64,000 nt of DNA, taken from positions 10,928 to 74,927 of the forward strand of contig JAUREO010000002.1 of NCBI GenBank assembly GCA_030827365.1. Direction: 5' to 3'. Positions within the stretch are counted from its first letter, which is position 1. Each line of letters opens with the position of its first letter. The position numbers and the translations under genes were made by a program. Below, piece after piece: positions 3,368 through 56,221 of this stretch. Under the pieces are notes generated by a model. It was not told the DNA's origin and made no database searches. It saw only the letters and a program-made list of their open reading frames with translations. Source of the DNA: Poseidonia sp. Lineage in GTDB: Archaea > Thermoplasmatota > Poseidoniia > Poseidoniales > Poseidoniaceae.

Positions 3368-3997
3368 TTGGGATTTCTCATGGGTAACAAAAAGGCAACT
3401 GATGTCTTTTCAGATTGGGCAGCCATAGGCAAAGATGAGGGAATGGAACAAGGTCATAGTCCTTCAGTGAACAAAATGATTGATATGGCTCTTCCTTTGA
3501 TGAAGCCAAATTTTACCTTCATCGATATTGGTTGCGGAAATGGTTGGGTTGTTCGAAAATTTCAATCCAATGCTCAGTGTTCGAAGGCCATTGGCATCGA
3601 CGGAGCAAAAAATATGATTGATAAAGCCAAAAACATTGACCCAGAAGGTCATTATGTACACGCCCAATTGCCTCAGTGGTCCCCCAATGAGAATTTTGAC
3701 CTTGCCATGAGTATGGAATTCATGTATTATCTCCATCAACCACAAGAATTTCTTACAACGGTTTTTCGTGATTGGCTCAATTCAAACGGCTGGCTTGTTT
3801 TTGGTATCGACCACTACCTTGAAAACGAATCAAGCCACACTTGGCCAAAAAAATTAGGCGTACACATGACAACTTTGAGTGAACAAGATTGGAAAAATTG
3901 CTTGGAATCCATTGGTTTTCAACATGTTTCATCGAGCCGAACTGGAGCATCGGATGTATGGGCTGGAACACTTATTGTGATGGGTCAAAAGCCCTAA
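3368..3997 (+). CDS. class I SAM-dependent methyltransferase
   Basis: FIDIGCGNGW glycine-rich SAM-binding motif I. Size about 200 aa. Its 3' end overlaps convergently with the addA-like gene by 26 bp. Confidence 0.65.
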   Translation: MGFLMGNKKATDVFSDWAAIGKDEGMEQGHSPSVNKMIDMALPLMKPNFTFIDIGCGNGWVVRKFQSNAQCSKAIGIDGAKNMIDKAKNIDPEGHYVHAQLPQWSPNENFDLAMSMEFMYYLHQPQEFLTTVFRDWLNSNGWLVFGIDHYLENESSHTWPKKLGVHMTTLSEQDWKNCLESIGFQHVSSSRTGASDVWAGTLIVMGQKP

Positions 3998-6900
3998 GGC
4001 CTAAAGGTTCAGAGACGGGCCCGCAACGACGAATATCACCGATGAAAAATGGACAAGACCGACACTCTTTGTCTGATTCAAGTCGAGGGGGAGCCTCAAG
4101 AGTGTCTGAACTCACAAGCACTGATGCCCGCCAAGATAGATGTTCAAGAATATCGGTTTTGCTTTTCGTGTATTGTTCGTCACTAAGTTGTATCATTCGC
4201 CCTGATGCACCAACTAAAATTGAAGGAGGTAGGATTGTTCTACGTTGGCTCGGTTTCTTGTGCTGCTCGATGGATTCGAGGACTATTGAGTACATCGTTA
4301 ACTGCAATCTGTATTGCTCGAGGAGTTCAAGTTCAGCAGGGGTTACTGCTATTGAATTCTCTACGCTCTGCTTGTTTTCTTGTAACGGGTGAGCATCTTC
4401 TTTGTCATGGGAGAATTCATCGAGGCATCCTTTTGTTTTCAAATCAACAACTTGGAGATATCCATTGTTTTGTCCATCACGCAAGGCAATTGCTAAATCT
4501 ATCCGCCCTTCAAAAATCATCGAAATATCATCAATAATCGACATGATTTCTGAGCCATAGGGTGTTTCTTTTGTATGTTCAATACATGGTTGAGAAATCT
4601 TGTGAATGTGTCGGAAAGGCAACTCCGTTCGAACTGCTTCGACTGTGAAACCTTCGCACTCAATGCCTTGCAGGAGGATTCCTAATCGTTGTTGGGTCAT
4701 CAATGTTGAAATTTCTTTGACTCGTTGTTTTGTCGATGAAAACTTAGCGTCAGATGGTGAAATTCCAAATTCCAAAAGAACATCCGCAATGGTTGTTTCA
4801 TCCAGCAACTTACTTTCGTTTTCGATGAACCATTCATTCGATAAAGAGGGTGTGGAGTCATCATGTTTGCATGGATTTGGTAAACCAACTTCGAGCAGAC
4901 GATGCATAATCAGACCAAAATCTGTGGGATTCGGGTATACTGATTGTGATTCATCCCGTTGGCGAGTTCGAATGTTGAGTGGTTCAGTTTGCCATCCCAA
5001 TACATGACTGAGCCAATGCCTCCTTCGACAACGAAATGAACTATCTAGGTCAAAAACCGTTCCTTTGGTTTCAAAGTGCAAGTGTGGAATTTGTCTTGAA
5101 TGATCTTGAACATTGGATTCTTGTTGTAATCTCGAATACATGTCAAGTGTTTGTCGTAAAACCGATGTAGGTTGTGAAGTCGAAAAACAATCAGGGTGAT
5201 GATAGACCTGTAATGTTTGAAGAGTTGATTCTCGAAATGTCGATTGAATGAACAATTGAGCAGGATTGATGAATAAAGGCGATTCATCGACTGGGGCCAA
5301 AACCTCCGCCTCGAGATCGCCTTCGAGCAGCCAAGGGGAATCAGGATTGCCTCCATATTTTGCAACCTGTCGCATGGCATCAATCAACATATTTCCAAAG
5401 GAACGGACACTCGTGCTACGTTTAATTTTGAACTTTTGGCTTTCTTCATCGTACTCACTCGAGGAAGGTGAGCCAACCAAAATCAACCGCTCTTCGGCTC
5501 TTGTGAGTGCAACATAAAGTTGTCTTCGTCGTTCTGCGCGACCTTGTGCATCTTCAATTGCTTTCGTAAATTCCCAAAGCCCATCTTGAGGCCGTTCGTG
5601 GTCAGTCCATGGTTGAATTCGTCCAGCAACAATTTGTGGAGTCACGAGTACATTGTCACGTACAGATTGGGATGCATCTTGTTGCCCAGCACCAAACATA
5701 CCTGCTACGATGACAACTTTTGCCTGCAAACCTTTTGCCTTGTGGAGCGTCATAATTTGAACTGCGTTTCCAGATGAAGATGATTCAGCCGGTGGCCCAT
5801 CTTTACCTAATGCCTTCAATGAACGTATATGCCTTTGAGTTGCAAGGATGTTGTATCCAAAATTGGCTAATGTATCATTGAGCAACGTACACCACGCTTC
5901 AACATGATTTCGCTCAGACTCATTGGAATGGACGACAAGGAGGTCGGAATAATCCAAAAGATATGTGAAAATATCACTAAATCGCCCTTGCAATCGAAAT
6001 GAGTTTACATCACTGAATATCTTTTGAATCGATTTAGGAAAAATGTTTGATTCAAAACATGAAAATAATTGTTTATTCAATTCAGATGTGAATAGAGTAT
6101 TGATTTCATCGTCGCTGAGTCCAACGAGTGGCGACCGCAAGACACCGAACAAAGCCCTTCTTGATTCTGGATAGGCAATGAATTCAAGCATTGATAATAA
6201 TGGTTGAATAACGGGTTGGTGAAGTAATGCACCTTGTTTGTCAGAGACTGCTGGAATCCCACGATTGGAGAGTCGTTGAATCAAATCTGGAACATGTGTT
6301 CTTGCGTGAAAGAGAATCATAATATCTCGTGGTTGATATTCACATCGGTCTCCTATCTCTATCCAAATTTGATTCTCAGTATCCCATATCCTCGTATTTT
6401 GGCCAGATAGTAGAGACGCAACTCTTTGGGCAATGAGCTCATTTTCAAGTTGTTTGAGAGATGAACGAGAATCAAGAAATGGGTCAAAGCTGTCATTCAT
6501 ATCGATGCTTGCTGGTTCAGTTTGTGTTTGAATTGGAATGAGCCATTCAAGGTATCCGCCGTCATCCTCTCTTCCAGGACGCAAACGCTGGGCGTCAGCA
6601 TACCAATTTCCAACGATGGTTTCGTGTCGGGGTGAAAAAACATCATCAAACACATCATTCATGAATTCAAGCAAATGGGAACGTGTTCGATAATTGGTTG
6701 TTAAATCGATATGGCCTTCCCTCCGCCTTTGGACTCGCTCAAGGTCGGTCATGAAACTGCCTTCTTCATCATCTCTTGCAGCAACATGCACATAGGAAAA
6801 AGGTGCACTTTTTTTGCCATCGGAGTGTTTGTTTGTAAACGCCGTTCCTGATGCTCCATCGCCCACGGGCCTCGGATCTCTTCCATGGTCTTGTCTACGA

Positions 6901-8012
6901 ATTTCTGAAAAGCGTTCATCATCTTCTTCCATTCGATTAGCTTCTCGAATTTGTTCGACCATTGTTCTCATCACAGAAACTTCTGCTTGCCGAAATCGGT
7001 AGATGCTTTGTTTCATATCCCCGACAATACAAATGGTGGGCTCCCAATATCCAAGTGGTCCTTTGACCTCGTCTGTAGTTCGAGTACGGCGACCCCACAA
7101 ACGAGCTAACAACCTTGCATGACTCGGATTTGTATCCTGGTATTCATCGATGATGAATGCTCTAAATTGTCGTCGAAGTGTTTGGAGGATTCGGTATCGA
7201 TATTGTAGGTCTTTTCTACAATCTTCATTGTCGTGCAAGATTGTCATAGCCCTTGCAATGTGCATGTCAGTCCAGGGTTCAGAAGTCATTGAATCAAGAG
7301 CATCGACAGCCTCTCTCGGATAGATGTGGCGGCACATATCTGGGCAACGTGAAAGCAAGACGTCTGCGGAAAATCGTAAGACATCATCAAAATCATTGAA
7401 ACCATCCATGGCCTTTCGATGTGAATGAATTTGTTGCGTTCCTTTGTGAACAAAGAACAAATCTCGTAAAACATCCATCTGGAGTTCTTCACTTACATAG
7501 TGACCGAATCCTTGATGCTGATGAGGTATGTCTACATTCAATCCGTACAAATACGAAGATACTCCTGCAGGCATGAATGCATAACCATCTTCCGGTTGAA
7601 GAGTGAAAACACTTTTCGCCAGCAATAAAAAAATTGACGATTCTCGATCGAGCAAGTGCTTTTTAATGAGGTCAGATAAATCTGCCCCATCATCGAAAAC
7701 CTGTTTTTTGAGATCTTTATCGGTAAATCCCGATTCGCCTCTTTTAAAGAGGCCTGCCTGCCAGTCATCGCTCGGAAGCGTACCTCGAGGGAAGAATGTC
7801 GGTGTTTCACCTTCTTTAAGACTTGACAGGCTTGCAATGGATAAACACGCTCGCCAAATCCATCGAAGTTTAGCTAGCGGTTCTTTTTCAGGAGGATGTT
7901 CAACCAAAATATATGAGGTGATGCATCCGACTTTGAGTAAATGCCTGACCAACAGGAATGCACTGTGCAGTGTATCCCCTAAAATGGTCAACCCATTTGG
8001 TGATACGAACAA
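3972..8012 (-). CDS. AddA/RecB-like helicase-nuclease, C-terminal portion (UvrD motifs Ic-VI plus Fe-S PD-(D/E)xK nuclease); frameshifted relative to the 7900..8880 ORF
   Basis: UvrD-family motifs: Ic DTLHSAFLLVR, II IIDEYQDTN, III IVGDMKQSIYRFRQAE, V IMTLHKAKGLQAKVV, VI LYVALTRAEERLILVG. C-terminal nuclease motifs: GRIDLAIAL...VVDLKTKG, QLTMYSIVL and Cys cluster CRSCPFFIGDIRRC. The track start is a TTG. Confidence 0.7.
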   Translation of the reverse strand: MFVSPNGLTILGDTLHSAFLLVRHLLKVGCITSYILVEHPPEKEPLAKLRWIWRACLSIASLSSLKEGETPTFFPRGTLPSDDWQAGLFKRGESGFTDKDLKKQVFDDGADLSDLIKKHLLDRESSIFLLLAKSVFTLQPEDGYAFMPAGVSSYLYGLNVDIPHQHQGFGHYVSEELQMDVLRDLFFVHKGTQQIHSHRKAMDGFNDFDDVLRFSADVLLSRCPDMCRHIYPREAVDALDSMTSEPWTDMHIARAMTILHDNEDCRKDLQYRYRILQTLRRQFRAFIIDEYQDTNPSHARLLARLWGRRTRTTDEVKGPLGYWEPTICIVGDMKQSIYRFRQAEVSVMRTMVEQIREANRMEEDDERFSEIRRQDHGRDPRPVGDGASGTAFTNKHSDGKKSAPFSYVHVAARDDEEGSFMTDLERVQRRREGHIDLTTNYRTRSHLLEFMNDVFDDVFSPRHETIVGNWYADAQRLRPGREDDGGYLEWLIPIQTQTEPASIDMNDSFDPFLDSRSSLKQLENELIAQRVASLLSGQNTRIWDTENQIWIEIGDRCEYQPRDIMILFHARTHVPDLIQRLSNRGIPAVSDKQGALLHQPVIQPLLSMLEFIAYPESRRALFGVLRSPLVGLSDDEINTLFTSELNKQLFSCFESNIFPKSIQKIFSDVNSFRLQGRFSDIFTYLLDYSDLLVVHSNESERNHVEAWCTLLNDTLANFGYNILATQRHIRSLKALGKDGPPAESSSSGNAVQIMTLHKAKGLQAKVVIVAGMFGAGQQDASQSVRDNVLVTPQIVAGRIQPWTDHERPQDGLWEFTKAIEDAQGRAERRRQLYVALTRAEERLILVGSPSSSEYDEESQKFKIKRSTSVRSFGNMLIDAMRQVAKYGGNPDSPWLLEGDLEAEVLAPVDESPLFINPAQLFIQSTFRESTLQTLQVYHHPDCFSTSQPTSVLRQTLDMYSRLQQESNVQDHSRQIPHLHFETKGTVFDLDSSFRCRRRHWLSHVLGWQTEPLNIRTRQRDESQSVYPNPTDFGLIMHRLLEVGLPNPCKHDDSTPSLSNEWFIENESKLLDETTIADVLLEFGISPSDAKFSSTKQRVKEISTLMTQQRLGILLQGIECEGFTVEAVRTELPFRHIHKISQPCIEHTKETPYGSEIMSIIDDISMIFEGRIDLAIALRDGQNNGYLQVVDLKTKGCLDEFSHDKEDAHPLQENKQSVENSIAVTPAELELLEQYRLQLTMYSIVLESIEQHKKPSQRRTILPPSILVGASGRMIQLSDEQYTKSKTDILEHLSWRASVLVSSDTLEAPPRLESDKECRSCPFFIGDIRRCGPVSEPLGLRAFDPSQ

Positions 8013-8880
8013 ATAAGGTTACAAAAAATCTGTCAAGGTCTTCTTCATCAATCGTATCTAACATGATATCGTAGAGAAGTTCAACCGGCCCAGCATCATG
8101 TCCATTCCATTCAATATTCTGTTGTTGGGCTCGCCTGAGTAAATTTCGATGCGCTTCTTCTACAAACATCGATTTCGACATCAATCCTTGAATAACAACC
8201 TCTGCATTGGATTGTCCTCCCAAACGAATTGCGAGTCTATCTCTTGCTCCGAGAAATTCTTGTGGATTTTCGAGCAAACCAGCATTCAATGCATCATCAA
8301 CATGCCTTAGTCGCCAAACGCTACTCAACGTGTCTTGAATGAGAATTTTTGACATTTCTTCTGAAATTTGCTCTGATGGTGGAGTCGTAGCAACAATGTC
8401 AAGGTACGGTTGAATAATTTGATTTAGGAAACTGTCGATGGTCGAAATAGGTGCATTGTCAAGTTGTGAAAGCAACATTTCAACGTCCCCGCTCTGTTGA
8501 ATTCTCGGGTCGAACACACCATCGTCCTCATCTGAGGATGAAGTATCTCGTAAGAGCGACAACGCATCACGAATGCGGGCTTTCAATTCTGCCGCAGCTT
8601 TTCTTGTAAATGTGATTGCGACAACTTCTGAAGGAAGCAATCCGGGCCATTCTTCGACTGAGGTTCTCAATTTAGGCAGAGATGTCAACGAACTCGGAGC
8701 AATTTTGTTATCTCGTGGGCCAATTGGTGTAACGAGTGTGGAGCGTTGAAATGTGGATAAAAGATGTTGAATATATCGTTGGGCCATCACTGTGGTTTTG
8801 CCAGTACCTGCACCAGCATCAAGTGCAATGTGTTTGTCAACATCAAGACCAAGTCGTTGGCTATTGTTAAAATTGGTCAA
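7900..8880 (-). CDS. AddA/RecB-like helicase N-terminal portion (Walker A and motif Ia); 5' fragment of the frameshifted gene
   Basis: Walker A DAGAGTGKTTV and motif Ia VVAITFTRKAAAEL. The ORF ends at 7900. The downstream ORF in another frame carries motif Ic from about 7979, overlapping this ORF by 113 bp. Confidence 0.65.
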   Translation of the reverse strand: MTNFNNSQRLGLDVDKHIALDAGAGTGKTTVMAQRYIQHLLSTFQRSTLVTPIGPRDNKIAPSSLTSLPKLRTSVEEWPGLLPSEVVAITFTRKAAAELKARIRDALSLLRDTSSSDEDDGVFDPRIQQSGDVEMLLSQLDNAPISTIDSFLNQIIQPYLDIVATTPPSEQISEEMSKILIQDTLSSVWRLRHVDDALNAGLLENPQEFLGARDRLAIRLGGQSNAEVVIQGLMSKSMFVEEAHRNLLRRAQQQNIEWNGHDAGPVELLYDIMLDTIDEEDLDRFFVTLFVRITKWVDHFRGYTAQCIPVGQAFTQSRMHHLIYFG

Positions 8881-11800
8881 TCCATTTCACCTCCTGCAAG
8901 GTCAAAAAGAGTGCAAATATTATTGATTGGGCAATATGAACAATATGAGCCTGGAGTTGGATTGACGTGCCCTTGTGCGGCGGTTTGAAGCACTCTCAAG
9001 GCAGTTTGAATTCTCTCCTTCATCCACATTCGGAATGGTGTCATGGTTCGCTCTTCAAGTGTTGATATAGGATAGAACTTATTCAAAATCTGAGTTACTC
9101 TGCCAATACCTGCAAGAGACACATTCGAAGGGAATGCCGAGCCGTCAATTTCCACATAATGTTCTGACCATTCTCCGACCTCACTAATGCCAACGCCCAC
9201 GACTCTGTCGTTTGGATGAGTGATTTCCCACGCTCGAGCATACAACGCAAGTTGCAATTCCCGCATGAGACCTTTGAAATGTCTCTCTCCCACCTTGTTT
9301 GTTTTCGGACCGTTCACGGTTTTGATATCTCGAATGATGACATACCTTTGTGCTGGTCGAATTCCGTCTGAGTAGTCCATTGGAAATGGTTCAGTAAATT
9401 CTGTTTCGTTGAGAAAACCAATTTCGACCAATGCGTCTTCTAAGACTTCATCGAAAGTGATGAGGTCAACTCTATCGGCAAAACCATTGACACACAAGGA
9501 AACATCATCTTGCGTGATGATATTGACGTATCCAAGGTCATCTTGCGACACCGGCCATTCAACCGCAACCGGAGCAGAAGATGTGAGCGAGTAGGTTTGC
9601 TGTATAAGTTGACCAATGCTACCGCCAAGAGGCAGAAGTAGAGTGCCTTCCAAATGCTCTCGCCACGATTGGGGAGAAGCGCCGATAAGGCTACGACAAC
9701 GATGAACGGAAATGGCGTAATCTTGTTCAAGCCAAGTGACATGTTTTGCAAGATAGGACAAGGCGAGTTCCCACCCGTGTTCAACAGAGGGGATTGCACC
9801 ACAATGAAGTGGAAGTGGGGCGGATTGTTCATCACCATAAGCAACTACTCCATGACGCTCAAGGATATGAGCCAAAATTTCATGAATCATGTCACCTCTT
9901 TTCAATGGGTTGATGTCTTCCTCCAAATCTGATGGCTCATCTTCAAGATTCAAGAATTGTTTTGCCCATCCTTTTCTTGGACATTCTAACCATGCTTGAA
10001 TACGCGATGGTGACCATCGATTACGTTCAAGAGTACTTGTGATGATCCCGCTAAAGGGTTCCATCTCAGGCTGAATGAGGTGGGCAGGTGGCAAAGGGTT
10101 TGGGTCGATATATGGAGTAATACTCCTACTACCTCGAATTCCAAGATGTGGAAACGCTACAATTGCCGTGTCTTCTTTCTCCGCTTGCTTTAGATTCAGA
10201 CCGAATTTCAGGTCTGAAATTGATGTTCGTAAACTTCGAGAGTCCCAGTCCAACACTTCGCCTTTGGCCAAATTCTTCTTTGATGGTTGTCGTAATATTC
10301 GATCTTGATGCAGTTGTCGTTCTATTTGAGGCAAAAATGATTCAATGCTATTGAGTGGCTGTGAAGGTTCAAGGCCATACTTCAACTCTAAACCAAGATT
10401 CTGTCGAATGTTTCGTTGACGGATTCCATTCTTTTGGATGACATATCGTCCGTGATCTTGTCGAATGTGAAGGGGGCGGGGTGTTATCCAAGTCAATTTC
10501 TTTTTTTCATCATACCATTGCCCCCAATACGACGATGTGTCGGATTCAGTACCCAACTCCATCCATTCAAATGGAGTGGTGAGTTCAGACATTCCAGAAT
10601 GGCCAAGTTTAGTAAACCATTCTGAAAGTGGGGCGGAAGGTTCTCCACCTTCTTCCAAGCTTGTGTCAAAAATGACTACTTGGGGTGAGCAATTGAGCAG
10701 ATGACGCAACTGATGTCGTCCTTGCCTTATTCTTTGGTCGTTTGAGAAAAATCCCAACTCTTGCTTTGAATATTCATCTAACCAAGGTATTACAGGCTGA
10801 CGCATTGACCATGATTCCAAATCCAGATGGGTTAAAATCAGGAAGTCACACTCAAGCCCAAAGGCTTGGTCCGGTTGTAGCACACGAATTTTATTTGAAT
10901 TACTTGGCGAACCGGTCGTCTTTACGTGTGAGCAAATGTGAGTGAGTCGTTCAAAAAACCAATGAATTCCAAAATTATTGAGCGAGGATTGAGGAATGGT
11001 TTTTTCCAACTCTCGAACATTTGAAATCAATTTTTCTAAGCCTTGTATTTCTTGATGATGTTCAACTTGAGAGGAAAGAAGTCGACTCCAATCTATTTTG
11101 CATAAAAATTCTTCAAACCATGCAAAAACGTGAGGCGGGCTTTCAGGTAGTGGAAGTTGAGCAAGGGTAGCCGCCCCTTCAATATCAAGTTGGGCAATGA
11201 AATTATCCTCTGGGGATAACAATGGCCCCATGAGTCTTGCAAACGCAGCAAGTGCCCATTGTGTTTCTTCGATTTCCTTAGCGGTGATGACCTCATATTG
11301 ATTCTCTATGGGTTGCATTCTCTGCAGATTGGTTCGCCAACGAGCAAGGGCTCCAGGGCCACCAAGGAGGTGATGAATTGAGGAGCATTTCTCCAAGACA
11401 TGTTGGTGCAAACATGGACGCCAGTTGCTCACAGTGGGGTGCCTCAATTCAGGAAATATGTCGTCAAGAAGTGTGAGCGACCCTGAATGAAGTAGTCTCG
11501 AGATGTTGGCAAATGACCAAGCATGCACACCATAACCAATCCTTGCAATGCCTAATAATTGCTGTACGTGTGGTGTGTAGTGAAGTGAGATGCCTGGTTT
11601 ATCCAAATCAATTCCGCTCGGAGAAAGATGTTGTTGCCATAATGTTTGATGTTGATCACCGCAAGGATCGATGATAATGATTTCACCCTCGTGCTGTTGA
11701 AGATATTCAGCAACACATTGGCCGACCGACTCAAAAATATCCTTTTTATCTGATAGAAGCACACGCACGAATTTGCTCTCCCGACTTTTTCCAACCGATG

Positions 11801-12590
11801 TTTGCCAACCCGATTCATTTTGCTTTGGACGCTCTATGGCATGAAGGCCAAAGGGCAATGTTTCTTGTTCATCGTATGCTTGGTCAACAAGATATCGTCC
11901 GTGAAAACCAAGTCGAAACGACCCCTCTGCTATGAGTTGATGAACTGGAACCCATTCTGCTAGGTGCTGGAGAATGCTCGCCTGCATTGGGGTATAATCG
12001 GGTGGCTGGTTAAGGATGATGATACCGTCAATCAATTCTAAATGGAATGGTTTGCTCTTGAATTTTTTCAATGCTTGAAGAACATGAAGTTCAAGGAAGA
12101 AGGCGAATGTTCGCTGCATTTGTGATTCAAGAGATTGTAATTCAGTCACAATGTCATCAAATCCAGGATTTTCGCTCCAATTCCATGGCTGCTCACCTCG
12201 AAGAAGCACCTTGAGCGTTGATAGAATTCGTTGTGTCTTCGAAAACGACCAAGGATGTGCTCCACTGTGGAGAAGTGGGAATGCCAACTCTGATGCTCTA
12301 CCTTCAAGAAACGAATGAATGGATTGCAAGGTTGCAATGTCAAGTTCAATCACCGATGGCAACCTGAGATCGCTTGCCAATTGACGTAAGAGTCCACTGT
12401 AGGTCACATGATTACTTGGGTGAACAATTGAGCTTTCCCGATTCAATTGGTTCACGAATTGGTGTCGATGTTCACTCGTCGGATGTATGATGAGGACCCG
12501 TTCAAGTTCTCCGTTGAGCAGGGATTGTTTCAACCAGTGAGGGGCACCACGGCCTAACTCAACTGGTTCTGATGTAATCATTCTCTTCAC
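8877..12590 (-). CDS. AddB-like partner subunit with C-terminal Cas4/RecB-type Fe-S PD-(D/E)xK nuclease domain
   Basis: 1237 aa. C-terminal WSPSRIQAWLECPRKGW (N-terminal Cys of the cluster), GFADRVDLITFDE, YVIIRDIKT, QLALYARAW and CSYCPINNIC (CxxCx5C). No clear Walker A seen in the N-terminal region. ATGA overlap with the downstream helicase ORF. Confidence 0.6.
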   Translation of the reverse strand: MKRMITSEPVELGRGAPHWLKQSLLNGELERVLIIHPTSEHRHQFVNQLNRESSIVHPSNHVTYSGLLRQLASDLRLPSVIELDIATLQSIHSFLEGRASELAFPLLHSGAHPWSFSKTQRILSTLKVLLRGEQPWNWSENPGFDDIVTELQSLESQMQRTFAFFLELHVLQALKKFKSKPFHLELIDGIIILNQPPDYTPMQASILQHLAEWVPVHQLIAEGSFRLGFHGRYLVDQAYDEQETLPFGLHAIERPKQNESGWQTSVGKSRESKFVRVLLSDKKDIFESVGQCVAEYLQQHEGEIIIIDPCGDQHQTLWQQHLSPSGIDLDKPGISLHYTPHVQQLLGIARIGYGVHAWSFANISRLLHSGSLTLLDDIFPELRHPTVSNWRPCLHQHVLEKCSSIHHLLGGPGALARWRTNLQRMQPIENQYEVITAKEIEETQWALAAFARLMGPLLSPEDNFIAQLDIEGAATLAQLPLPESPPHVFAWFEEFLCKIDWSRLLSSQVEHHQEIQGLEKLISNVRELEKTIPQSSLNNFGIHWFFERLTHICSHVKTTGSPSNSNKIRVLQPDQAFGLECDFLILTHLDLESWSMRQPVIPWLDEYSKQELGFFSNDQRIRQGRHQLRHLLNCSPQVVIFDTSLEEGGEPSAPLSEWFTKLGHSGMSELTTPFEWMELGTESDTSSYWGQWYDEKKKLTWITPRPLHIRQDHGRYVIQKNGIRQRNIRQNLGLELKYGLEPSQPLNSIESFLPQIERQLHQDRILRQPSKKNLAKGEVLDWDSRSLRTSISDLKFGLNLKQAEKEDTAIVAFPHLGIRGSRSITPYIDPNPLPPAHLIQPEMEPFSGIITSTLERNRWSPSRIQAWLECPRKGWAKQFLNLEDEPSDLEEDINPLKRGDMIHEILAHILERHGVVAYGDEQSAPLPLHCGAIPSVEHGWELALSYLAKHVTWLEQDYAISVHRCRSLIGASPQSWREHLEGTLLLPLGGSIGQLIQQTYSLTSSAPVAVEWPVSQDDLGYVNIITQDDVSLCVNGFADRVDLITFDEVLEDALVEIGFLNETEFTEPFPMDYSDGIRPAQRYVIIRDIKTVNGPKTNKVGERHFKGLMRELQLALYARAWEITHPNDRVVGVGISEVGEWSEHYVEIDGSAFPSNVSLAGIGRVTQILNKFYPISTLEERTMTPFRMWMKERIQTALRVLQTAAQGHVNPTPGSYCSYCPINNICTLFDLAGGEMD

Positions 12591-12862
12591 CGTTTTCCTT
12601 GTCTTGAGTTACCGTTTGCAAGCCTTTATGAACATTGAGTGCTAAGTTTCTCTGTCCGGTGAACGAAGTTGATTCGGGGGCATTTAAATTTCAAAAATGT
12701 GCCCAAATATCTTATCTTTCATGGGTAATGTTAATTAACTGGTTATGGTTGAATTCAATTTCCGTGCGGCAAAAACTGACCATTTGTGCAAATTAAAGAG
12801 CCAAATAACATCATGAATGAGATTCATGTTTTGCGTGTGGAAAGTCAAGTGAAGTGAAAGAA

Positions 12863-14050
12863 ATGAGCGAAAAATGTAGTGAATGCGGGAGTGAGAACTT
12901 CCGAACAGATGATGAGAAAGCAGAATGTGTTTGCGAAAACTGTGGTTTTGTGATGCCAGCACCACAAAACAACGAGATGAATAATTCCTCAAATTTGTAT
13001 GGGGAACAACGAACCCATGAACGCGTAACATCAAGGGCGGACCTCGGAGGCACCTATCAGCGTACAAGAAGTCAATTTGACCACGCAGGTCAAAGAATCA
13101 ACCCCGCAATTCGACGAAGTTTGAATTATGGTAGCCAACGTACTCAGGAACGAGAACGAAATCCACAGCTTCGAGAAGTGAAAGAAGCCGTCACATACCT
13201 TGTTGGGGAAGATGCAATGTTGTCAATCGAACGAATTATTGATGCATGTATTCAACCTTATAGCGAGGAGGATGATGCAAAGATTCGCGCTCTTGAACAG
13301 TCTCGTCGCAAAGACAAAAACCTGAAGAATGTCGCTCAAAGTGTCAATCGTATCTCAGATGACTTCTTTTCAAAACGAGGTGACGAAAATCGTTCAACAG
13401 CAGGGCCCCTAAACAACTACTTACTCGCCATGGCCATTCTGGAGTGGGCCTCAAATCTAGGACTTATTCAACGTGTTCAACTCGATGGTCAACGTGAGTC
13501 CTTTGGTCTCCCAGAGGATTTGGTCAACAAGGCCAAACAAATCGTCGACAAGTGTTTGAAGGCCCAGATGCGACATGGCCTACGATGCAGTGGACTTCGT
13601 TTCATTGCTGACAGACATAACAAAGACCTAGTGGTCGCCAACCGTGATGATGACTTCACCGTTGCTTTGAAGATGCTCATCGAAGCATTATCGGACCACG
13701 GTATAGACGATGATATCCTTGAAAGCATGAACTATGACATCGAACAACGCATGAACATTCTCCAAGAAGCTTCACTCTATGGTCCATTGACCAATCATCC
13801 AGCCAAGAAAATCATGGCAATGCTAGTGTGCGTCTCCCTTGAGGCTCATGTTGGAAGCCACCGTAACCTCACACTCATTGCTGAGGAGGTATCCATGACT
13901 GCACAAGGCCTTACAAACTTCATTCGTATGGTTCGTGAGGATCGATCTTTATTGCCAATTGCGTATCTTGTTGCTGTTCTCGCACAACGAATTGCATCAT
14001 TAAACAACAACACAACAAATGATGATGCTGACATTTCTGAAGAAAAATAG
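12863..14050 (+). CDS. TFIIB-type zinc-ribbon protein, divergent TFB-like (no recognisable B-reader or cyclin signature)
   Basis: N-terminus MSEKCSECGSENFRTDDEKAECVCENCGFV matches the TFB/TFIIB Zn-ribbon CxxC-x15-17-CxxC. The rest is long and divergent. Track start is a GTG at 12854; I take the ATG at 12863. Confidence 0.4.
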   Translation: MSEKCSECGSENFRTDDEKAECVCENCGFVMPAPQNNEMNNSSNLYGEQRTHERVTSRADLGGTYQRTRSQFDHAGQRINPAIRRSLNYGSQRTQERERNPQLREVKEAVTYLVGEDAMLSIERIIDACIQPYSEEDDAKIRALEQSRRKDKNLKNVAQSVNRISDDFFSKRGDENRSTAGPLNNYLLAMAILEWASNLGLIQRVQLDGQRESFGLPEDLVNKAKQIVDKCLKAQMRHGLRCSGLRFIADRHNKDLVVANRDDDFTVALKMLIEALSDHGIDDDILESMNYDIEQRMNILQEASLYGPLTNHPAKKIMAMLVCVSLEAHVGSHRNLTLIAEEVSMTAQGLTNFIRMVREDRSLLPIAYLVAVLAQRIASLNNNTTNDDADISEEK

Positions 14051-14071
14051 GGTAAAAGTCAAACCACAGGT

Positions 14072-14980
14072 GTGAATCGAAGATTCATGCGAAGATGGCA
14101 AGTTGTTGCTCTCGGACTGATGCTCCTCATCGTTGTCCCTTCAAATACGGCCGCTCCTGTTGAAGAATTGGATGTTGGTTTCATCGTCGGTGGTCAATGG
14201 ACCAACGCCTCAAATTCATCAACTGCATCCGATTATTTTGTGGACTTACCCGCGCTGGTCGAAGATTACACGGCAACTTGGTGTACCAATTGTGTCGATG
14301 TTGAGCATGCATTAAATGAAATCCCTTCTCGATATCTTCAACAATACCATTTTCACAGAGCGATTGGAGAAACAGAAGACCCGTTTGGTTCTGTAGTTCT
14401 TGATGAGCGGTGGGAAGACCGTTACGGTCTTCGAATCCCGCCAACAGTTGTATTCAATGGATACCTCAAGAAAATCGGTAGTGTTGCCGATGGAGAATCA
14501 TTGAAGGACGATTATGATGAGTTAACCAATTCAACACCCCCTATGGATGAAGGGTCGACACAATTTGTCTGGACACCGGCAGGTGAATCAGGAATCGCCG
14601 CCTGGAATGTCGACATAAGTTCAAGTGTTCTTGCAAATTATTCCCTCGATGTTCAAGTTTGGTTTGTCGAAAGCGGGGCCACATTTGAAGAAGGGTCGAA
14701 TCAACTTGGATATTACCCTCATATCGTACGAGAAATTCATTCGTTAGGAAATGCTACAAATGGCACAGAAAATTTACCCATTCCAGTTGCGTTTGACGGT
14801 GATGATGTTGAAGTTCATTTGATGTACGAGTTCAAACCTATTGTTCTTGAAGTGTGTTGTGATGAACCGATAATTTCTGATGAAGATTCTACGGACAATC
14901 CATTGCCGTATCTCGGCCTCATCGAGATTTTTGCCATCATTGCCATCGTTGTGGCGCTAAAGTCTAAGCGGCTATTGTAA
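14072..14980 (+). CDS. secreted, C-terminally membrane-anchored thioredoxin-fold protein (WCxxC)
   Basis: Signal peptide-like N-terminus (VVALGLMLLIVVPSNTAAP). WCTNC redox motif. N-glycosylation-type NxS/T sequons. C-terminal hydrophobic anchor IEIFAIIAIVVALKSKRLL. Confidence 0.5.
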   Translation: MNRRFMRRWQVVALGLMLLIVVPSNTAAPVEELDVGFIVGGQWTNASNSSTASDYFVDLPALVEDYTATWCTNCVDVEHALNEIPSRYLQQYHFHRAIGETEDPFGSVVLDERWEDRYGLRIPPTVVFNGYLKKIGSVADGESLKDDYDELTNSTPPMDEGSTQFVWTPAGESGIAAWNVDISSSVLANYSLDVQVWFVESGATFEEGSNQLGYYPHIVREIHSLGNATNGTENLPIPVAFDGDDVEVHLMYEFKPIVLEVCCDEPIISDEDSTDNPLPYLGLIEIFAIIAIVVALKSKRLL

Positions 14981-18512: not shown

Positions 18513-18878
18513 TTATAACAATGGTAACTCGCCTGTAATCGCGTCAATGTCGTCTTCGTATGAGGGGCCAATAGCGAGGACGGTGAAACTTCCTTTGGGA
18601 ATTTGAGTGTGGCCGGCGTCAATGGTTTTACTCGTGTGCAGTTTCAATTGGCGGGCTTTTGCTTGAAGTTCGGTCAAGTGTTGTTCATCCACTCCTTTCA
18701 GGCAAACTTTCTTTTGCCCCTGAGCCAACCATGCATCGACCATTTTTGGCGTAGATGAACCAGCAGAAAGCAGAGTTTGCACACTAGCATGGCCGACCTG
18801 TGCAGCAATTTTGCCTTTTTTCATCCCCAAACTATGGTTGATAACAAGAGCGAGTTTGATTGGACGCGCTTCAACCAT
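18513..18878 (-). CDS. pth2: peptidyl-tRNA hydrolase, archaeal PTH2 family (copy 1)
   Basis: KLALVINHSLGMKKGKIAAQVGHASV and C-terminal TVLAIGP match the Pth2 fold. Start set at MVEARPIK. The track extends to 18932. Confidence 0.7.
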   Translation of the reverse strand: MVEARPIKLALVINHSLGMKKGKIAAQVGHASVQTLLSAGSSTPKMVDAWLAQGQKKVCLKGVDEQHLTELQAKARQLKLHTSKTIDAGHTQIPKGSFTVLAIGPSYEDDIDAITGELPLL

Positions 18879-18928
18879 GCCTCCAATTTTGGGAGCCGTT
18901 AATCTGTGCAAGAAGGAGCGAAGGCCCA

Positions 18929-19306
18929 TCAATCCACCCCGTACAACTCAAGTTGAGAAAACAACTCATTAAGTGATGCTTTGTAAGCTGGCCCGACACC
19001 AAGAACGGTGATCGTATTTGGTGGAATTTCAGTTTTTCCAGCATCGCGGACAAGAGCATGGACAAGTCCTGCCTCCTCGCATTTTTCTTTCCAATACATA
19101 ATATCTACATCGTCAATTGCAGAAAGGCAAATTTTTCGAGAACCTGTGTTCCTCCACATTTCAAAAATTTGAGGAATTGACTTTCGTGCTTGAAGTGAAC
19201 AATCAACAGCTGCATGTGCACATTGAACTGCAACCTTACCCATCGACATTTCAAGGTCAGTACGCACGAGAAGTGCCATACTCAATTGGTCATCCGCGGA
19301 CAACAT
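18929..19306 (-). CDS. peptidyl-tRNA hydrolase, archaeal PTH2 family (copy 2, tandem paralog)
   Basis: MALLVRTDLEMSMGKVAVQCAHAAV...TVLGVGP. Same Pth2 architecture, different sequence. Confidence 0.7.
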   Translation of the reverse strand: MLSADDQLSMALLVRTDLEMSMGKVAVQCAHAAVDCSLQARKSIPQIFEMWRNTGSRKICLSAIDDVDIMYWKEKCEEAGLVHALVRDAGKTEIPPNTITVLGVGPAYKASLNELFSQLELYGVD

Positions 19307-28293: not shown

Positions 28294-29655
28294 ATGGCCG
28301 ATGAAAAAAAGGATGAGTTTGAGGCTCATTGGCCAGGTCAACCTTGGATGGAAGGAAAGACCGTCATTCTGCTTTCAAACCAACAAGAGCGCCCATCGCA
28401 TATGCCTCGTGGCCCAGCGAAACGAGTCGGCCCCGGATTCATCAATCCAGCAATGGCACCTGCGAGAACAAGGTCAGTACTCCTGCTTGAAGATGCACTT
28501 TCCAACGAGTGGCTTACAGAGGGAGAGATGCCCATTCGTGCTCTTGATGCACTATGCAGTACAGGTGTCAGATTTCGGCGATGGAGAAATGAAATTCCAA
28601 AAGAATTACAGCCTCGGCTGAGAATTCACGCAAATGATTTGGATGAGTTCGCTCTTCGCTGGGCTCAAGAATCCAATCTACTTTACCCGCCGAATCATGT
28701 TTGGGATTTTGATGAAGAACTTTTTAATGACCACGAAAGAGTTCATGGAACACTCATCGAGGGCATTTTTTACATGCAAGAAGATGCCCGAATTGCATTG
28801 AATAAGGGTGCATATCAGTGGATTGACCTCGACCCATTTGGCTCCCCAATCACCTTCCTTGATGCTGCCATACAGGGTATAGGACGACGTGGTGTACTCG
28901 AAGTGACCGCTACAGATACAGCCGCCTTAACAGGTTCAAGTCCTTCATCTCAACGAAGAAGATACGGTGCAAAGGGCATTGTTGATGCATATGCCCATGA
29001 TGATGCCATTCGGACACTGCTTGGAGTCGTAGCTACAACTGCTGCAAAACATGACCGATTCATTGAACCAATTCTCTGCCTCTTTGATGGACATCATGTC
29101 CGGCTAAGTGTGCTTATTGTTCGTGGAAAAGAAAAGGCCTCAGAAATGCAAACCTCGATCGGATGGAGATTGCGTTACAAAGATGGTGGCTACATCTTCG
29201 TCGAACACCCCTCTCCAGAAGAACTCGTCAACGCAAGTGGACCCATGTGGATTGCCCCTCTGTGGAATCAAGCAATCACATCGAGATTGAGTGAGGAAAG
29301 GGCACTCAGCATCTGTTTTCCGAGTGAAAATGAAAAGAAACTTTTGAATCAAATGCATGGGGGATGGTCTGAAAACGACTGGGAATATTGGAGGCGAGAA
29401 ATCTGCCGAAGTGTTCGATTCATCCAAGATGCTGCTCCAATCATGAGTCACGACCATCTCCTCATCGACATTGACGATTTCGCAAAGAAACTCAAACTCA
29501 AACACATTCCGAAAATGGAGAGTATTTTGACTGCATTTAGGAATGCTGGCCATGAAACTGCTCGTGTTCCAGATGCGAATCCAATGATTGCGACCTTTGC
29601 TTCAATCGAACAATCAAAACAAATTCTTCGTGTCCTCGGCAAATCACATGAATGA
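28294..29655 (+). CDS. trm1: tRNA (guanine(26)-N2)-dimethyltransferase
   Basis: Trm1 signature IDLDPFGSPITFLDAA. SAM-MTase fold. Length is extended at the N-terminus relative to typical archaeal Trm1, so the true start may be at MEGKTVIL near 28348. Confidence 0.75.
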   Translation: MADEKKDEFEAHWPGQPWMEGKTVILLSNQQERPSHMPRGPAKRVGPGFINPAMAPARTRSVLLLEDALSNEWLTEGEMPIRALDALCSTGVRFRRWRNEIPKELQPRLRIHANDLDEFALRWAQESNLLYPPNHVWDFDEELFNDHERVHGTLIEGIFYMQEDARIALNKGAYQWIDLDPFGSPITFLDAAIQGIGRRGVLEVTATDTAALTGSSPSSQRRRYGAKGIVDAYAHDDAIRTLLGVVATTAAKHDRFIEPILCLFDGHHVRLSVLIVRGKEKASEMQTSIGWRLRYKDGGYIFVEHPSPEELVNASGPMWIAPLWNQAITSRLSEERALSICFPSENEKKLLNQMHGGWSENDWEYWRREICRSVRFIQDAAPIMSHDHLLIDIDDFAKKLKLKHIPKMESILTAFRNAGHETARVPDANPMIATFASIEQSKQILRVLGKSHE

Positions 29656-30426
29656 TGGGTCAATATCTGTGTCACTTTCTCCAACTATATCTTGAGGAGC
29701 AGAGAGCCTTGGTTGTGCATTGGCAAGGGATTGTTGCACACTATCTTCGATGGCACGGGCGTATTCGAGTAAGTCGTTGAGGGGGATGTCAATGTTTGTC
29801 ATGTCGCTTACCGCCTCAATAGCAACTGCTGCGGCTCTCGCATCGGGGTACAGTGGACTCGCTTCGGCGAGGAGGGCTGTAACATCAAGTCCCAATCGAT
29901 CACCTTCACTTAACAGAAACCCTGTAATTCCTGTCACAATTCCTTCTTGGATGGTGTTAATACCCAAACTTTTGAGTTGTTTTCTCGATGATTCGCTGGT
30001 CGAAACACCAAATAACTCACTTTCATTACTGTCCTTCGATAGTCTTGGAACACCATCGATGATAATGAGGCGTTCGAAATTTCCTTTGGTGTACCATTCG
30101 AGCACGGTCGAACCGAACATGACGTCCATTTCATTCTTGAATTGCAGTTGTGAAATGAAAACACCAAGTCCCTCAGTTTGATAGATTCGAACAGGATGTT
30201 TAGGAATTTCATCTTGAACAAGCGCAACGGCTGGAAAGTCTGCGTGCATGACTGTACCAAGTTGCCTCATATTGAGTGAATTGATCAAGTGAGCTGTGGC
30301 TATAGCCCCCACCTTTCCATCGGTGGTAAATCCACAAATGGCAACCCCGCCCGTTGCATTTGGGTCAGCGTCTTTTTGCAACATCAATGAATAACCCGGC
30401 ATCAGTGTATCCATTGTTCCACCCAA
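29644..30426 (-). CDS. PAC2-family proteasome assembly chaperone homolog (paralog 1)
   Basis: PAC2/DUF75-like: GVAICGFTTDGKVGAIATAHLI...ASPLYPDARAAAVAIEAV. The PDARAAA motif is shared with paralog 2. Confidence 0.65.
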   Translation of the reverse strand: MGGTMDTLMPGYSLMLQKDADPNATGGVAICGFTTDGKVGAIATAHLINSLNMRQLGTVMHADFPAVALVQDEIPKHPVRIYQTEGLGVFISQLQFKNEMDVMFGSTVLEWYTKGNFERLIIIDGVPRLSKDSNESELFGVSTSESSRKQLKSLGINTIQEGIVTGITGFLLSEGDRLGLDVTALLAEASPLYPDARAAAVAIEAVSDMTNIDIPLNDLLEYARAIEDSVQQSLANAQPRLSAPQDIVGESDTDIDPSFM

Positions 30427-47949: not shown

Positions 47950-47974
47950 AGACAGAAAATCATGGTGGAGTTTT

Positions 47975-50200: not shown

Positions 50201-50240
50201 ATTTCTCCAACTCTTCAACCATTCTTGAACCCTTGCGCAC

Positions 50241-56131: not shown

Positions 56132-56221
56132 GACAAGTTGTAGTCCCTTGTCCTTATCAAATTGAGGTCTTAGAGTCTTCAATCGAGGTCGACTTGTGGA
56201 AACTTGACGCAATTGTGGAAG

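What the first reader, a model, noticed from the sequence alone, without database searches (positions are those of the whole stretch)
3972..12590. AddAB/RecB-family helicase-nuclease operon inside an otherwise archaeal gene neighbourhood; both subunits carry Cas4-like Fe-S nuclease domains
Three minus-strand ORFs with ATGA-type overlaps encode two proteins. The first (1237 aa) is AddB-like. It has no obvious Walker A, and its C-terminal PD-(D/E)xK nuclease carries the CxxCx5C Fe-S signature (CSYCPINNIC) plus an upstream Cys. The second is UvrD-family, with helicase motifs I, Ia, Ic, II, III, V and VI all identifiable. It is fused to another PD-(D/E)xK nuclease with its own Cys cluster (CRSCPFFIGDIRRC). 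Canonical AddA has no Fe-S cluster, so a two-Fe-S-nuclease arrangement is unusual. Archaea normally rely on Mre11-Rad50-HerA-NurA for end resection. A bacterial-type AddAB/AdnAB-like machine here suggests horizontal acquisition, or a distinct end-processing or anti-phage role. The same window also holds LigA and a DnaQ-like exonuclease, so this locus looks like a mosaic of bacterial repair genes in an archaeal chromosome.
Basis: partly seen in the sequence, partly recalled or inferred. Interest (0 to 1): 0.7.

Follow-up and report, generated by a model that had tools for sequence, protein, structure and literature searches.

The report
Archaeal AddAB-type DNA-end helicase-nuclease operon
Marine Group II archaea (Poseidoniales) all carry a highly diverged two-gene copy of the bacterial AddAB DNA-break-processing machine, which is a real and conserved feature that shows these archaea use a bacterial-style tool where archaea are normally thought to use Mre11-Rad50/HerA-NurA.

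Summary
Window 3972-12590 (minus strand) encodes an addB-like gene (8880-12581, 1234 aa) followed, with a TTGA stop/start overlap, by an addA-like gene (3972-8880). The "third ORF" is not a gene. The addA-like gene is split by a 1-nt insertion near 7906-7912. That insertion is absent from four 99.8-99.9 % identical assemblies and from 80 other species, so it is an assembly artefact or a rare allele.

The AddA-like protein (1635 aa when intact) has all SF1A motifs and a PD-(D/E)xK nuclease. Its best matches are AddA, by HMM and by fold. The AddB-like protein has almost no sequence match to AddB. However, its AlphaFold model matches B. subtilis AddB and mycobacterial AdnA over nearly the full length, and profile comparison links it to genuine AddB.

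Both nucleases carry a conserved four-Cys "iron-staple" pattern, and AddB-like has no Walker A.

The operon is a syntenic core gene of Poseidoniales (302 species representatives) with native composition. Any transfer from bacteria was therefore ancient.

Double-Cys addBA operons also occur in uncultured bacteria, so that trait is unusual but not unique.

Verdict: a new, archaeal variant of a known machine. Its function is inferred, not shown.

The parts
8880..12581 (-). addB-like gene. It is 1234 aa from the ATG at 12581; the ORF listing extends it to the GTG at 12590, and the stop codon is 8877-8879. It encodes an inactivated SF1-helicase-like scaffold plus a C-terminal PD-(D/E)xK 'iron-staple' nuclease.
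12465..12482 (-). Degenerate P-loop position of AddB-like (IIHPTSEHR; P34 and R39 are invariant). There is no Walker A here.
   Evidence: none of 115 family members has an N-terminal [AG]xxxxGK[ST]. The bacterial Walker-A-less AddBs L087 and L088 read LVPTxRMAR at this position. The equivalence of position is inferred from placement in the sequence, not from a structural superposition.
8913..9983 (-). AddB-like nuclease domain with its four Cys ligands. These are C867 (9981-9983), C1214 (8940-8942), C1217 (8931-8933) and C1223 (8913-8915). The catalytic motifs are H900, E1008, D1036 (GxxDRVD), D1085-x-K1087 and Q1110...Y1114.
   Evidence: Conservation and coordinates. The spacing from the first Cys to the triad is 347 aa, against about 320 aa in B. 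subtilis AddB (C801/C1121/C1124/C1130; PMC3321194).
8877..8880 (-). TTGA overlap of the addB stop codon and the addA start codon. A GGAGGTGA element lies upstream, which suggests translational coupling.
   Evidence: addB and addA abut or overlap in 83 of 85 loci, and the other two loci end at a contig edge.
3972..8880 (-). addA-like gene. It encodes 1635 aa when intact. Here it is split into 7900-8880 (326 aa) and 3972-8012. It comprises an SF1A UvrD-type motor plus a C-terminal PD-(D/E)xK nuclease.
   Evidence: Pfam UvrD-helicase, UvrD_C and PDDEXK_1. NCBIfam best hit is addA_Gpos at 200 bits, ahead of addA_alphas at 150 and recB at 147. By sequence against the PDB, 3u44_A (AddA) scores E 3e-19. 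By Foldseek, 4ceh_A (AddA) scores E 1e-24, followed by RecB.
7900..7915 (-). Frameshift site. The window has a 1-nt insertion plus two substitutions (TATTTTGGTTGAA against TATTTAATTGAA), which creates the stop at 7900-7902.
   Evidence: The intact gene is present in L002 and L003, and the available parts are unbroken in L004 and L005, all with a 100 % identical AddB. The split halves P0425 and P0437 occur on only one NCBI contig.
8791..8814 (-). AddA-like Walker A, motif I (GAGTGKTT).
   Evidence: It is present in 117 of 118 full-length relatives.
4023..5030 (-). AddA-like nuclease domain with its candidate four-Cys set. These are C1284 (5028-5030), C1606 (4062-4064), C1609 (4053-4055) and C1619 (4023-4025). 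The catalytic motifs are H1326/E1330, E1419, D1461 (GRIDL), D1479-L-K1481 and Q1526...Y1530.
   Evidence: hhalign places the first Cys and the His motif in register with those of AddB-like (83.6 %). Fe-S binding is inferred, not shown.

Best explanation
This is a chromosomal, vertically inherited addB-addA operon. It encodes an AddAB-type heterodimeric helicase-nuclease of a Poseidoniales (Marine Group II) archaeon.

Inferred mechanism, by homology with B. subtilis AddAB:
- The complex binds a double-strand DNA end.
- The single active SF1A 3'->5' motor, in AddA-like, pulls the 3' strand through the complex and unwinds the duplex.
- The AddA-like nuclease cuts the 3'-terminated strand.
- The AddB-like nuclease, held by a four-Cys Fe-S 'iron staple' near the fork, cuts the 5'-terminated strand.
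- The dead helicase-like body of AddB-like serves as scaffold and possibly as a scanner for a Chi-like sequence.
- The product would be a 3' single-stranded tail for the archaeal recombinase RadA. Free linear (foreign) DNA would simply be degraded.

This version differs from the textbook enzyme in four ways:
- AddA is about 400 aa longer.
- AddA has its own probable Fe-S cluster.
- AddB has no ATP-binding site.
- Both sequences are extremely diverged.

Shown here: gene structure, domain content, motif conservation, fold similarity, operon and synteny conservation, and taxonomic spread. Inferred: complex formation, Fe-S binding, strand polarity, Chi regulation and the biological role.
For: Domains and motifs are established.

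AddA-like is closest to AddA by three routes:
- HMM: addA_Gpos scores 200 bits, above recB at 147.
- PDB sequence search: 3u44_A, E 3e-19.
- Fold: 4ceh_A, E 1e-24.

AddB-like is closest to AddB and AdnA by fold and by profile comparison:
- Foldseek: E 2.5e-18, TM about 0.55, over the full length.
- hhalign: to a bona fide alpha-type AddB and to a bacterial Walker-A-less AddB over 611 columns.

The gene order addB->addA, with overlapping or abutting genes, holds in 83 of 85 loci. Both catalytic motif sets are intact across the family.

Evidence for a core, housekeeping gene:
- 302 GTDB species representatives carry it. The best 80 are all Poseidoniales, including the original MG-II genome CM001443.1.
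- Flanking genes are syntenic.
- GC is 0.437 against 0.447 for the window, and codon usage lies within the range of neighbouring genes.
Against: - There is no biochemical or genetic evidence.
- Both proteins fall far below every curated AddA, AddB and RecB equivalog cut-off.
- The AddB-like link rests on a predicted structure of moderate confidence (pTM 0.56) and on hhalign probabilities of 84-94 %.
- The AddA-like model gave low TM scores (about 0.3) because it was truncated and has floppy insertions.
- Cys-cluster geometry could not be inspected, because no coordinates were returned.
- Some family members lack the AddA Cys triad.
- No Chi sequence, RadA interaction or expression data were available.
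- In this particular assembly the addA reading frame is broken.
Confidence: 0.8

Rival explanations
1. The operon is primarily an anti-virus or foreign-DNA defence nuclease rather than a recombinational repair enzyme. On this view it degrades linear invading DNA in a RecBCD-like way, or acts as a module of a defence system such as Gabija or UvrD-Cas4.
For: - The AddA-like helicase gives generic GajB (UvrD) PADLOC hits of up to 66 bits.
- UvrD-Cas4 fusions in bacteria and mesophilic archaea are linked to defence contexts (PMC5704561).
- The closest bacterial relative's operon (L090) sits next to a DruA gene.
- Bacterial RecBCD and AddAB do also destroy phage DNA (established knowledge).
Against: - The operon is present in essentially every Poseidoniales species sampled, at one fixed syntenic position among housekeeping genes. 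That is unlike a variable defence island.
- No methylase, restriction or other defence partner is conserved next to it.
- The PADLOC hits cover only shared helicase motifs and score far below the AddA HMM scores.
- The two roles are not mutually exclusive.
Confidence: 0.12
2. The two proteins do not form an AddAB-like complex. On this view AddA-like is a stand-alone UvrD/RecB-like helicase-nuclease, and the upstream gene is an unrelated large Cas4-family nuclease that merely shares an operon.
For: - AddB-like has no significant sequence match to AddB in the PDB or to NCBIfam AddB models. The only hits are Cas4 at E 0.027 and addB_alphas at 16 bits.
- Stand-alone UvrD-Cas4 fusions exist (PMC5704561).
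Against: - The AF2 model of AddB-like aligns with AddB and AdnA along the whole chain, not only in the nuclease domain.
- hhalign links its helicase-like 2A region to a genuine AddB that scores 888 bits on TIGR02786.
- The pair co-occurs strictly, with overlapping reading frames, in the canonical addB->addA order. The same order is seen in the bacterial relatives L087, L088 and L090.
Confidence: 0.05
3. The locus is bacterial contamination or a chimeric assembly, or the addA gene is a true pseudogene, so that the system is dead in this organism.
For: - The addA frame is interrupted in the window.
- Two hits carry bacterial MAG labels: L022 Verrucomicrobiales and L070 Flavobacteriales.
Against: - The same operon lies between the same archaeal genes in dozens of independent assemblies. 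MCM and GatE are within 10-15 kb.
- The 'bacterial' MAG contigs carry the same archaeal synteny, including MCM and GatE in L070, so they are mis-binned.
- Composition is native.
- The frameshift is unique to one NCBI contig. Assemblies that are 99.8-99.9 % identical are intact.
Confidence: 0.03

Closest known systems
Bacillus subtilis AddAB (PDB 3U44, 4CEH; PMC3321194)
   Same: - The gene order is addB->addA.
- AddA combines an active SF1A motor with a RecB-type nuclease.
- AddB combines a helicase-like but inactive scaffold with a C-terminal nuclease that carries a C...CxxCx5C 4Fe-4S 'iron staple'.
- It is the best fold match for both subunits.
   Different: - Sequence identity is only 10-17 %.
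- Here AddB has no Walker A, whereas B. subtilis AddB binds ATP there.
- Here AddA is about 400 aa longer, with insertions in the 1B region and after motif III.
- Here AddA carries its own conserved four-Cys set (CxxCx9C plus an upstream Cys).
- The host is an archaeon.
- Scores are far below the TIGR02785 cut-off.
Mycobacterial AdnAB (PDB 6PPJ, 7SJR, 9NP6; PMC13000450)
   Same: - It is a heterodimer of two UvrD-like-plus-nuclease subunits.
- The non-motor subunit AdnA carries the Fe-S cluster at the fork.
   Different: - AdnA retains nucleotide-binding motifs and binds AMPPNP, whereas AddB-like has none.
- The lead motor subunit AdnB has no Fe-S cluster, whereas AddA-like has the Cys pattern.
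Uncultured-bacterial addB-addA operons with Cys clusters in both subunits (L087; L088/L089)
   Same: - AddB lacks a Walker A (LVPTxRMAR) and has CxxCx5C.
- AddA has a C-terminal CxxCx6-7C plus an upstream Cys in an FCPAAYF-like helix.
- The gene order is the same.
- hhalign of AddB-like against L087 AddB gives 89.8 % over 611 columns.
   Different: - The proteins are of normal size (AddA 1256-1295 aa, AddB 1078-1110 aa).
- They are much closer to the canonical AddA HMMs (388-400 bits).
- Their context is bacterial (UvrC, Lgt, RNase E/G).
- They score only 94-102 bits against the archaeal AddA-like protein.
E. coli RecBCD (RecB and RecC)
   Same: - RecB is the second-best fold class for AddA-like.
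   Different: - There is no RecD-like second motor.
- RecC has no active nuclease and no Fe-S cluster.
- The recB HMM scores lower than the addA HMMs.
UvrD-Cas4 fusion proteins of bacteria and mesophilic archaea (Hudaiberdiev et al. 2017, PMC5704561)
   Same: An SF1 UvrD-like helicase is fused to a Cas4-like Fe-S nuclease of Pfam PF12705.
   Different: - Those proteins are described as stand-alone genes or as sitting in restriction-modification or Dcm/Vsr defence contexts.
- They have no AddB-like partner.
- Here there is an obligatory two-gene operon in a fixed housekeeping context.

Membership tests
AddA (helicase-exonuclease AddAB subunit A; NCBIfam TIGR02785 and TIGR02784) | The score reaches the curated equivalog cut-off. 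| tested here: not met
   The intact ortholog P0001 scores 200 bits on addA_Gpos against a cut-off of 707.65. It scores 150 bits on addA_alphas against a cut-off of 860.75. AddA models are still the best-scoring of all helicase families.
AddA | A complete SF1A (UvrD-type) helicase motif set, followed by a C-terminal RecB-type PD-(D/E)xK nuclease with D...DxK and QxxxY. | tested here: met
   Motifs I-VI are conserved at 90 % or more in 118 relatives. GRIDL, VDLKT and QLxxY are conserved across the deepest family members. Pfam hits are UvrD-helicase, UvrD_C and PDDEXK_1.
AddA | The fold matches a solved AddA better than other SF1 helicase-nucleases. | tested here: met
   The top four Foldseek hits are B. 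subtilis AddA chains (E 1e-24 to 2e-21), followed by RecB. TM scores are low (0.3) because the model is truncated and multidomain.
AddB (NCBIfam TIGR02786 and related; Pfam ADDB_N) | Sequence match to curated AddB models. | tested here: not met
   addB_alphas scores 16 bits against a cut-off of 486.5. There is no PDB sequence hit. A profile search found one bona fide AddB at E 6e-5.
AddB | An N-terminal UvrD-like four-subdomain fold that lacks the catalytic helicase motifs. | tested here: met
AddB | A C-terminal PD-(D/E)xK nuclease with the four-Cys 'iron-staple' pattern: the first Cys lies about 300 aa upstream of CxxCx5C. | tested here: met
   C867 is followed 347 aa later by C1214-xx-C1217-x5-C1223, with DRVD, IRDIK and QLALY motifs. 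Cluster binding itself was not tested.
AddB | A Walker A ATP-binding site near the N-terminus, as in B. subtilis-type AddB. | tested here: not met
   None of 115 members has it. This feature is also absent from the bacterial AddBs L087 and L088, so it defines a subtype rather than the family.
AddAB system | The two genes are adjacent and co-oriented (addB then addA), and they co-occur. | tested here: met
   This holds in 83 of 85 loci. The remaining two loci are cut by contig ends.
AddAB system | The proteins form a heterodimer with ATP-dependent helicase and dual-nuclease activity that is regulated by Chi. | not testable with these tools
   This needs biochemistry. A Chi search needs whole genomes with a known replication direction.
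RecBCD | A RecB-RecC-RecD trio with a second (RecD, SF1B) motor. | tested here: not met
   No RecD-like gene lies in the operon or the flanks. The recB HMM scores below the addA HMMs.
AdnAB | Both subunits retain nucleotide-binding motor motifs. | tested here: not met
   AddB-like has no Walker A and no motif II.

The most novel reading that the evidence does not exclude
An entire, globally abundant archaeal order has adopted a bacterial-type AddAB machine as a core DNA-end-processing enzyme. It would work with the archaeal RadA recombinase, and possibly with its own Chi-like genomic signal. It would either replace or run alongside Mre11-Rad50/HerA-NurA. It would also use a previously uncharacterised 'double iron-staple' architecture with Fe-S clusters in both nuclease domains.
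Probability: 0.4. Interest if true: 0.75.

Novelty: new variant of a known kind. Interest (0 to 1): 0.55.

Why it matters
End resection is described as RecBCD/AddAB in Bacteria and Mre11-Rad50 plus HerA-NurA in Archaea (for example PMC12977600). A conserved AddAB-type operon in all sampled Marine Group II archaea is a clear exception to that picture.

It raises three testable questions:
- How does a bacterial-style resection machine hand over to RadA?
- Do archaeal genomes carry Chi-like signals?
- What does a second Fe-S cluster do in the motor subunit?

Public annotations label the AddB-like partner only as 'PD-(D/E)XK nuclease family protein' or 'hypothetical', so the system is effectively unrecognised there. 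I found no paper in the searchable library that describes it.

It also adds a concrete DNA-repair example to the extensive ancient bacterial-to-MGII gene transfer documented by Deschamps et al. (PMC4122925).

Tried and rejected
- **Programmed frameshift or a true third gene at 7900-8012.** Rejected. Near-identical assemblies and all other species have one continuous ORF.
- **Recent HGT island.** Rejected on native GC, GC3 and codon usage and on order-wide synteny.
- **Bacterial or chimeric contig.** Rejected.
- **Sequence searches of AddB-like against the PDB, by phmmer and by profile.** These gave nothing beyond a weak Cas4 match.
- **Profile of the AddA-like nuclease domain against the PDB.** This gave only chance hits.
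- **Word-indexed profile search for AddB-like relatives outside the family.** This found a single marginal AddB.
- **PADLOC.** It gave only generic UvrD/GajB and Cas4 hits.
- **Rfam.** No RNA families were found in the window.
- **Sigma-70 promoter and terminator scan.** Results were below shuffle expectation, and the scan is not relevant to an archaeon.
- **afdb50 fold search.** The library was unavailable.
- **Papers not held.** Cromie 2009 and Yeeles 2009 were not available. The statement that addAB may have entered archaea is therefore known only second-hand, from PMC2887965.
- **Chi-like oligomer analysis.** Not attempted. 64 kb without a known replication direction has no statistical power.

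Full report
**What is in the sequence**

The minus strand of window 3972-12590 carries three long ORFs: 8877-12590, 7900-8880 and 3972-8012.

The first ORF has only a C-terminal PD-(D/E)xK hit (PDDEXK_1, 50 bits). The second and third ORFs together make up one UvrD-type helicase. The Pfam UvrD-helicase profile is split between them: positions 44-165 fall in ORF2 and positions 202-267 in ORF3. UvrD_C and a second PDDEXK_1 domain follow.

Comparison with a 96 %-identical ortholog (P0001, 1635 aa) places a frame change at about 7906-7912. Four other assemblies of the same population are 99.8-99.9 % identical over the 8.6-kb operon. They read TATTTAATTGAA where the window reads TATTTTGGTTGAA, and they encode an uninterrupted 1635-aa protein. 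The two halves (326 and 1311 aa) are on record from a single NCBI contig of 78,594 bp. The 'third ORF' is therefore a one-base insertion specific to this assembly. It is either an error or a rare allele, and it is not biology.

The real gene junction is a TTGA overlap, with a TTG start over a TGA stop. A GGAGGTGA element lies just upstream.

**Host and context**

- The flanking genes are archaeal: MCM, GatE, Trm1, two PAC2 genes, tandem PTH2 genes and a TFIIB-type zinc-ribbon protein.
- Named relatives are 'Candidatus Poseidoniales/Poseidoniaceae archaeon'.
- A scan of one genome per GTDB species found 302 species encoding a relative of the AddB-like protein. The 80 best are all Poseidoniales, from both Poseidoniaceae and Thalassarchaeaceae, and include the original MG-II genome CM001443.1.
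- Two hits are labelled as bacterial MAGs. They carry the same archaeal synteny, with MCM and GatE in L070, so they are mis-binned contigs.
- In 83 of 85 loci the AddA-like gene starts 0-51 nt (once 632 nt) after the AddB-like gene. The other two loci end at a contig edge.
- The surrounding genes are conserved in 51-72 of the 85 loci. These are a methyltransferase, an alpha/beta-hydrolase, phosphatidylserine decarboxylase and a beta-eliminating lyase.
- Operon GC is 0.437 against 0.447 for the window. GC3 and codon-usage distance lie within the range of neighbouring genes.
- A more distant copy (1164 + 1558 aa) sits on a 3.0-Mb contig with PTH2 and PSD synteny.

The operon is therefore an old, vertically inherited core gene pair of this archaeal lineage. 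It is neither a recent island nor contamination.

**The AddA-like subunit**

- All SF1A motifs are conserved at 90 % or more among 118 full-length relatives. They include GAGTGKT, DEYQD, GDMKQSIYRFRQA and YVALTR.
- The C-terminal nuclease keeps HRxxE, TE, GRxDL, DLKT and QLxxY even in the deepest members.
- NCBIfam ranks addA_Gpos first at 200 bits, then addA_alphas at 150, recB at 147 and PcrA at 89. All are far below their cut-offs.
- The best PDB sequence hit is B. subtilis AddA at E 3e-19.
- An AF2 model of the C-terminal 1200 aa (pLDDT 76) matches AddA chains first (E 1e-24), then RecB, then AdnA.
- An exhaustive HMMER scan of 1.8 billion representatives shows an isolated family of 1500-1720-aa proteins, scoring down to about 340 bits. 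There is then a gap to ordinary-sized AddA-like proteins at 121 bits or less. The hits examined sit in bacterial-type addB-addA operons.
- A crude NJ tree recovers the long family as monophyletic.
- The protein is about 400 aa longer than B. subtilis AddA. The insertions lie between motifs Ic and II and after motif III. They contain conserved but unexplained motifs.

**The AddB-like subunit**

By sequence it is nearly an orphan:
- PDB searches return nothing but a weak Cas4 match.
- A profile search returns 101 family members at more than 900 bits, then one genuine alpha-type AddB at E 6e-5.

Structure resolves the question:
- The AF2 model of residues 26-1225 has pLDDT 79 and pTM 0.56.
- Foldseek aligns it to B. 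subtilis AddB chain B along the whole chain, with E 2.5e-18 and TM 0.54-0.57. AdnA, UvrD/PcrA and RecC follow.

Profile-profile comparison adds sequence-level support:
- 93.5 % probability against the alpha-type AddB in the 2A-like region.
- 89.8 % over 611 columns against a bacterial AddB.

No member has an N-terminal Walker A.

**The cysteines**

AddB-like:
- C867 is followed 347 aa later by C1214-xx-C1217-x5-C1223.
- C867 is invariant, and CxxCx5C is present in 104 of 115 members.
- This mirrors the C801/C1121/C1124/C1130 ligands of the AddB 4Fe-4S 'iron staple' (PMC3321194).

AddA-like:
- C1284 is followed 322 aa later by C1606-xx-C1609-x9-C1619.
- C1284 is 96 % conserved and the triad is present in 107 of 118 members.
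- hhalign puts the first Cys and the following His motif in register with those of AddB-like, at 83.6 % probability.

In the characterised systems only one subunit has a cluster. That subunit is AddB in AddAB and AdnA in AdnAB (PMC13000450). The double pattern is therefore atypical.

It is not unique, however. About 6 of roughly 65 ordinary-sized (non-family) AddA-like hits have a C-terminal Cys triad. Two of their loci were examined: L087 next to uvrC, and L088/L089 next to lgt and RNase E/G. Both show the full four-Cys pattern in AddA and in AddB, together with a Walker-A-less AddB. Conversely, a few archaeal family members have lost the AddA triad.

Fe-S binding is inferred.

**Function**

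The most economical reading is an AddAB-type DNA-end-processing enzyme. It would have one motor (AddA-like) and two nucleases, one for each strand. An inactive helicase-like AddB body would act as scaffold and as a possible sequence scanner. The product would be a 3' tail for RadA, and free linear DNA would be destroyed.

A dedicated defence role is less likely. The locus is universal and sits at a fixed position among housekeeping genes. No defence partner is conserved next to it. PADLOC gives only generic helicase hits. As with RecBCD, the two roles can coexist.

I could not test whether Mre11-Rad50/HerA-NurA are present elsewhere in these genomes, or whether a Chi-like motif exists.

**Novelty**

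The standard account assigns RecBCD/AddAB to Bacteria and Mre11-Rad50/HerA-NurA to Archaea (PMC12977600). One paper cites Cromie 2009 for possible addAB transfer 'even into the archaea' (PMC2887965).

I found no paper in the searchable library that connects AddAB or RecB with Marine Group II or Poseidoniales. Automated annotation calls the helicase 'exonuclease V beta subunit' or 'UvrD-helicase domain-containing protein'. It calls the partner merely 'PD-(D/E)XK nuclease family protein' or 'hypothetical'.

Extensive ancient bacterial-to-MGII gene transfer is documented, at 29.7 % of genes (PMC4122925). That makes a bacterial origin plausible, but the direction of transfer was not tested phylogenetically here.

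I classify the finding as a new variant of a known kind. It is real, conserved and moderately surprising, and its mechanism is homology-inferred.

Noticed in passing
window 41852-43018 (-) and 41007-41867 (+): A stand-alone 388-aa PDDEXK_1/Cas4-like nuclease carries its own Cys set (YETCPRMYW ... CGGFCDFKAWC). It gives weak DruK and Cas4 PADLOC hits. It converges on a DnaQ/RNase_T-family 3'-5' exonuclease gene and overlaps it by 16 nt. This is a third 'iron-staple'-type nuclease domain in the same window.
   Followed up: partly
window 47975-50248 (-): A bacterial-type NAD-dependent DNA ligase (LigA) has adenylation, OB, HhH and BRCT domains. It sits in this archaeal chromosome next to a beta-carbonic anhydrase gene.
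   Followed up: partly
window 18513-18932 and 18929-19306 (-); 29644-30426 (-) and 43104-43904 (+): There are tandem, overlapping PTH2 (peptidyl-tRNA hydrolase) paralogs and two separate PAC2-family genes. The PTH2 pair is also present in the related loci L002-L005.
   Followed up: no
L022 (NZEQ01000040.1) and L070 (PAZG01000017.1): Public MAGs labelled Verrucomicrobiales and Flavobacteriales contain contigs with this archaeal operon and archaeal synteny, including MCM and GatE in L070. These are probable binning errors in the public records.
   Followed up: partly
L086 (ENA ERZ26167216 ctg495766, 3,002,195 bp), genes 6510-10004 and 10001-14677: A divergent copy of the operon (1164 + 1558 aa, about 31 % identity) lies on a 3.0-Mb contig with PTH2 and PSD synteny. 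The source may be a large-genome relative of Poseidoniales of unknown taxonomy. If so, the system predates the order.
   Followed up: partly
AddA-like protein, P0001 residues about 511-545 and 666-678 (window about 7245-7349 and 6846-6884, minus strand): Strongly conserved motifs of unknown role lie inside the lineage-specific insertions. They are RCPxxxRxxYP...EPWxDxHI, with invariant C512, and GRDPRPxGxG after helicase motif III. The AF2 confidence there is low.
   Followed up: no
window 51440-56269, 58414-63966, 30463-34614, 45448-48060 (all -): Several very large ORFs (870-1850 aa) carry beta-helix, FG-GAP, PKD and DUF4129 domains. They are probably secreted or surface proteins, and they make up a large share of the window.
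   Followed up: no
window 12680-12690 (minus-strand upstream region of addB-like): A TTTAAAT element lies about 100 nt upstream of the addB-like ATG, in the 260-nt divergent intergenic region shared with the TFIIB-zinc-ribbon gene. It is a candidate archaeal TATA box. This was not tested.
   Followed up: no
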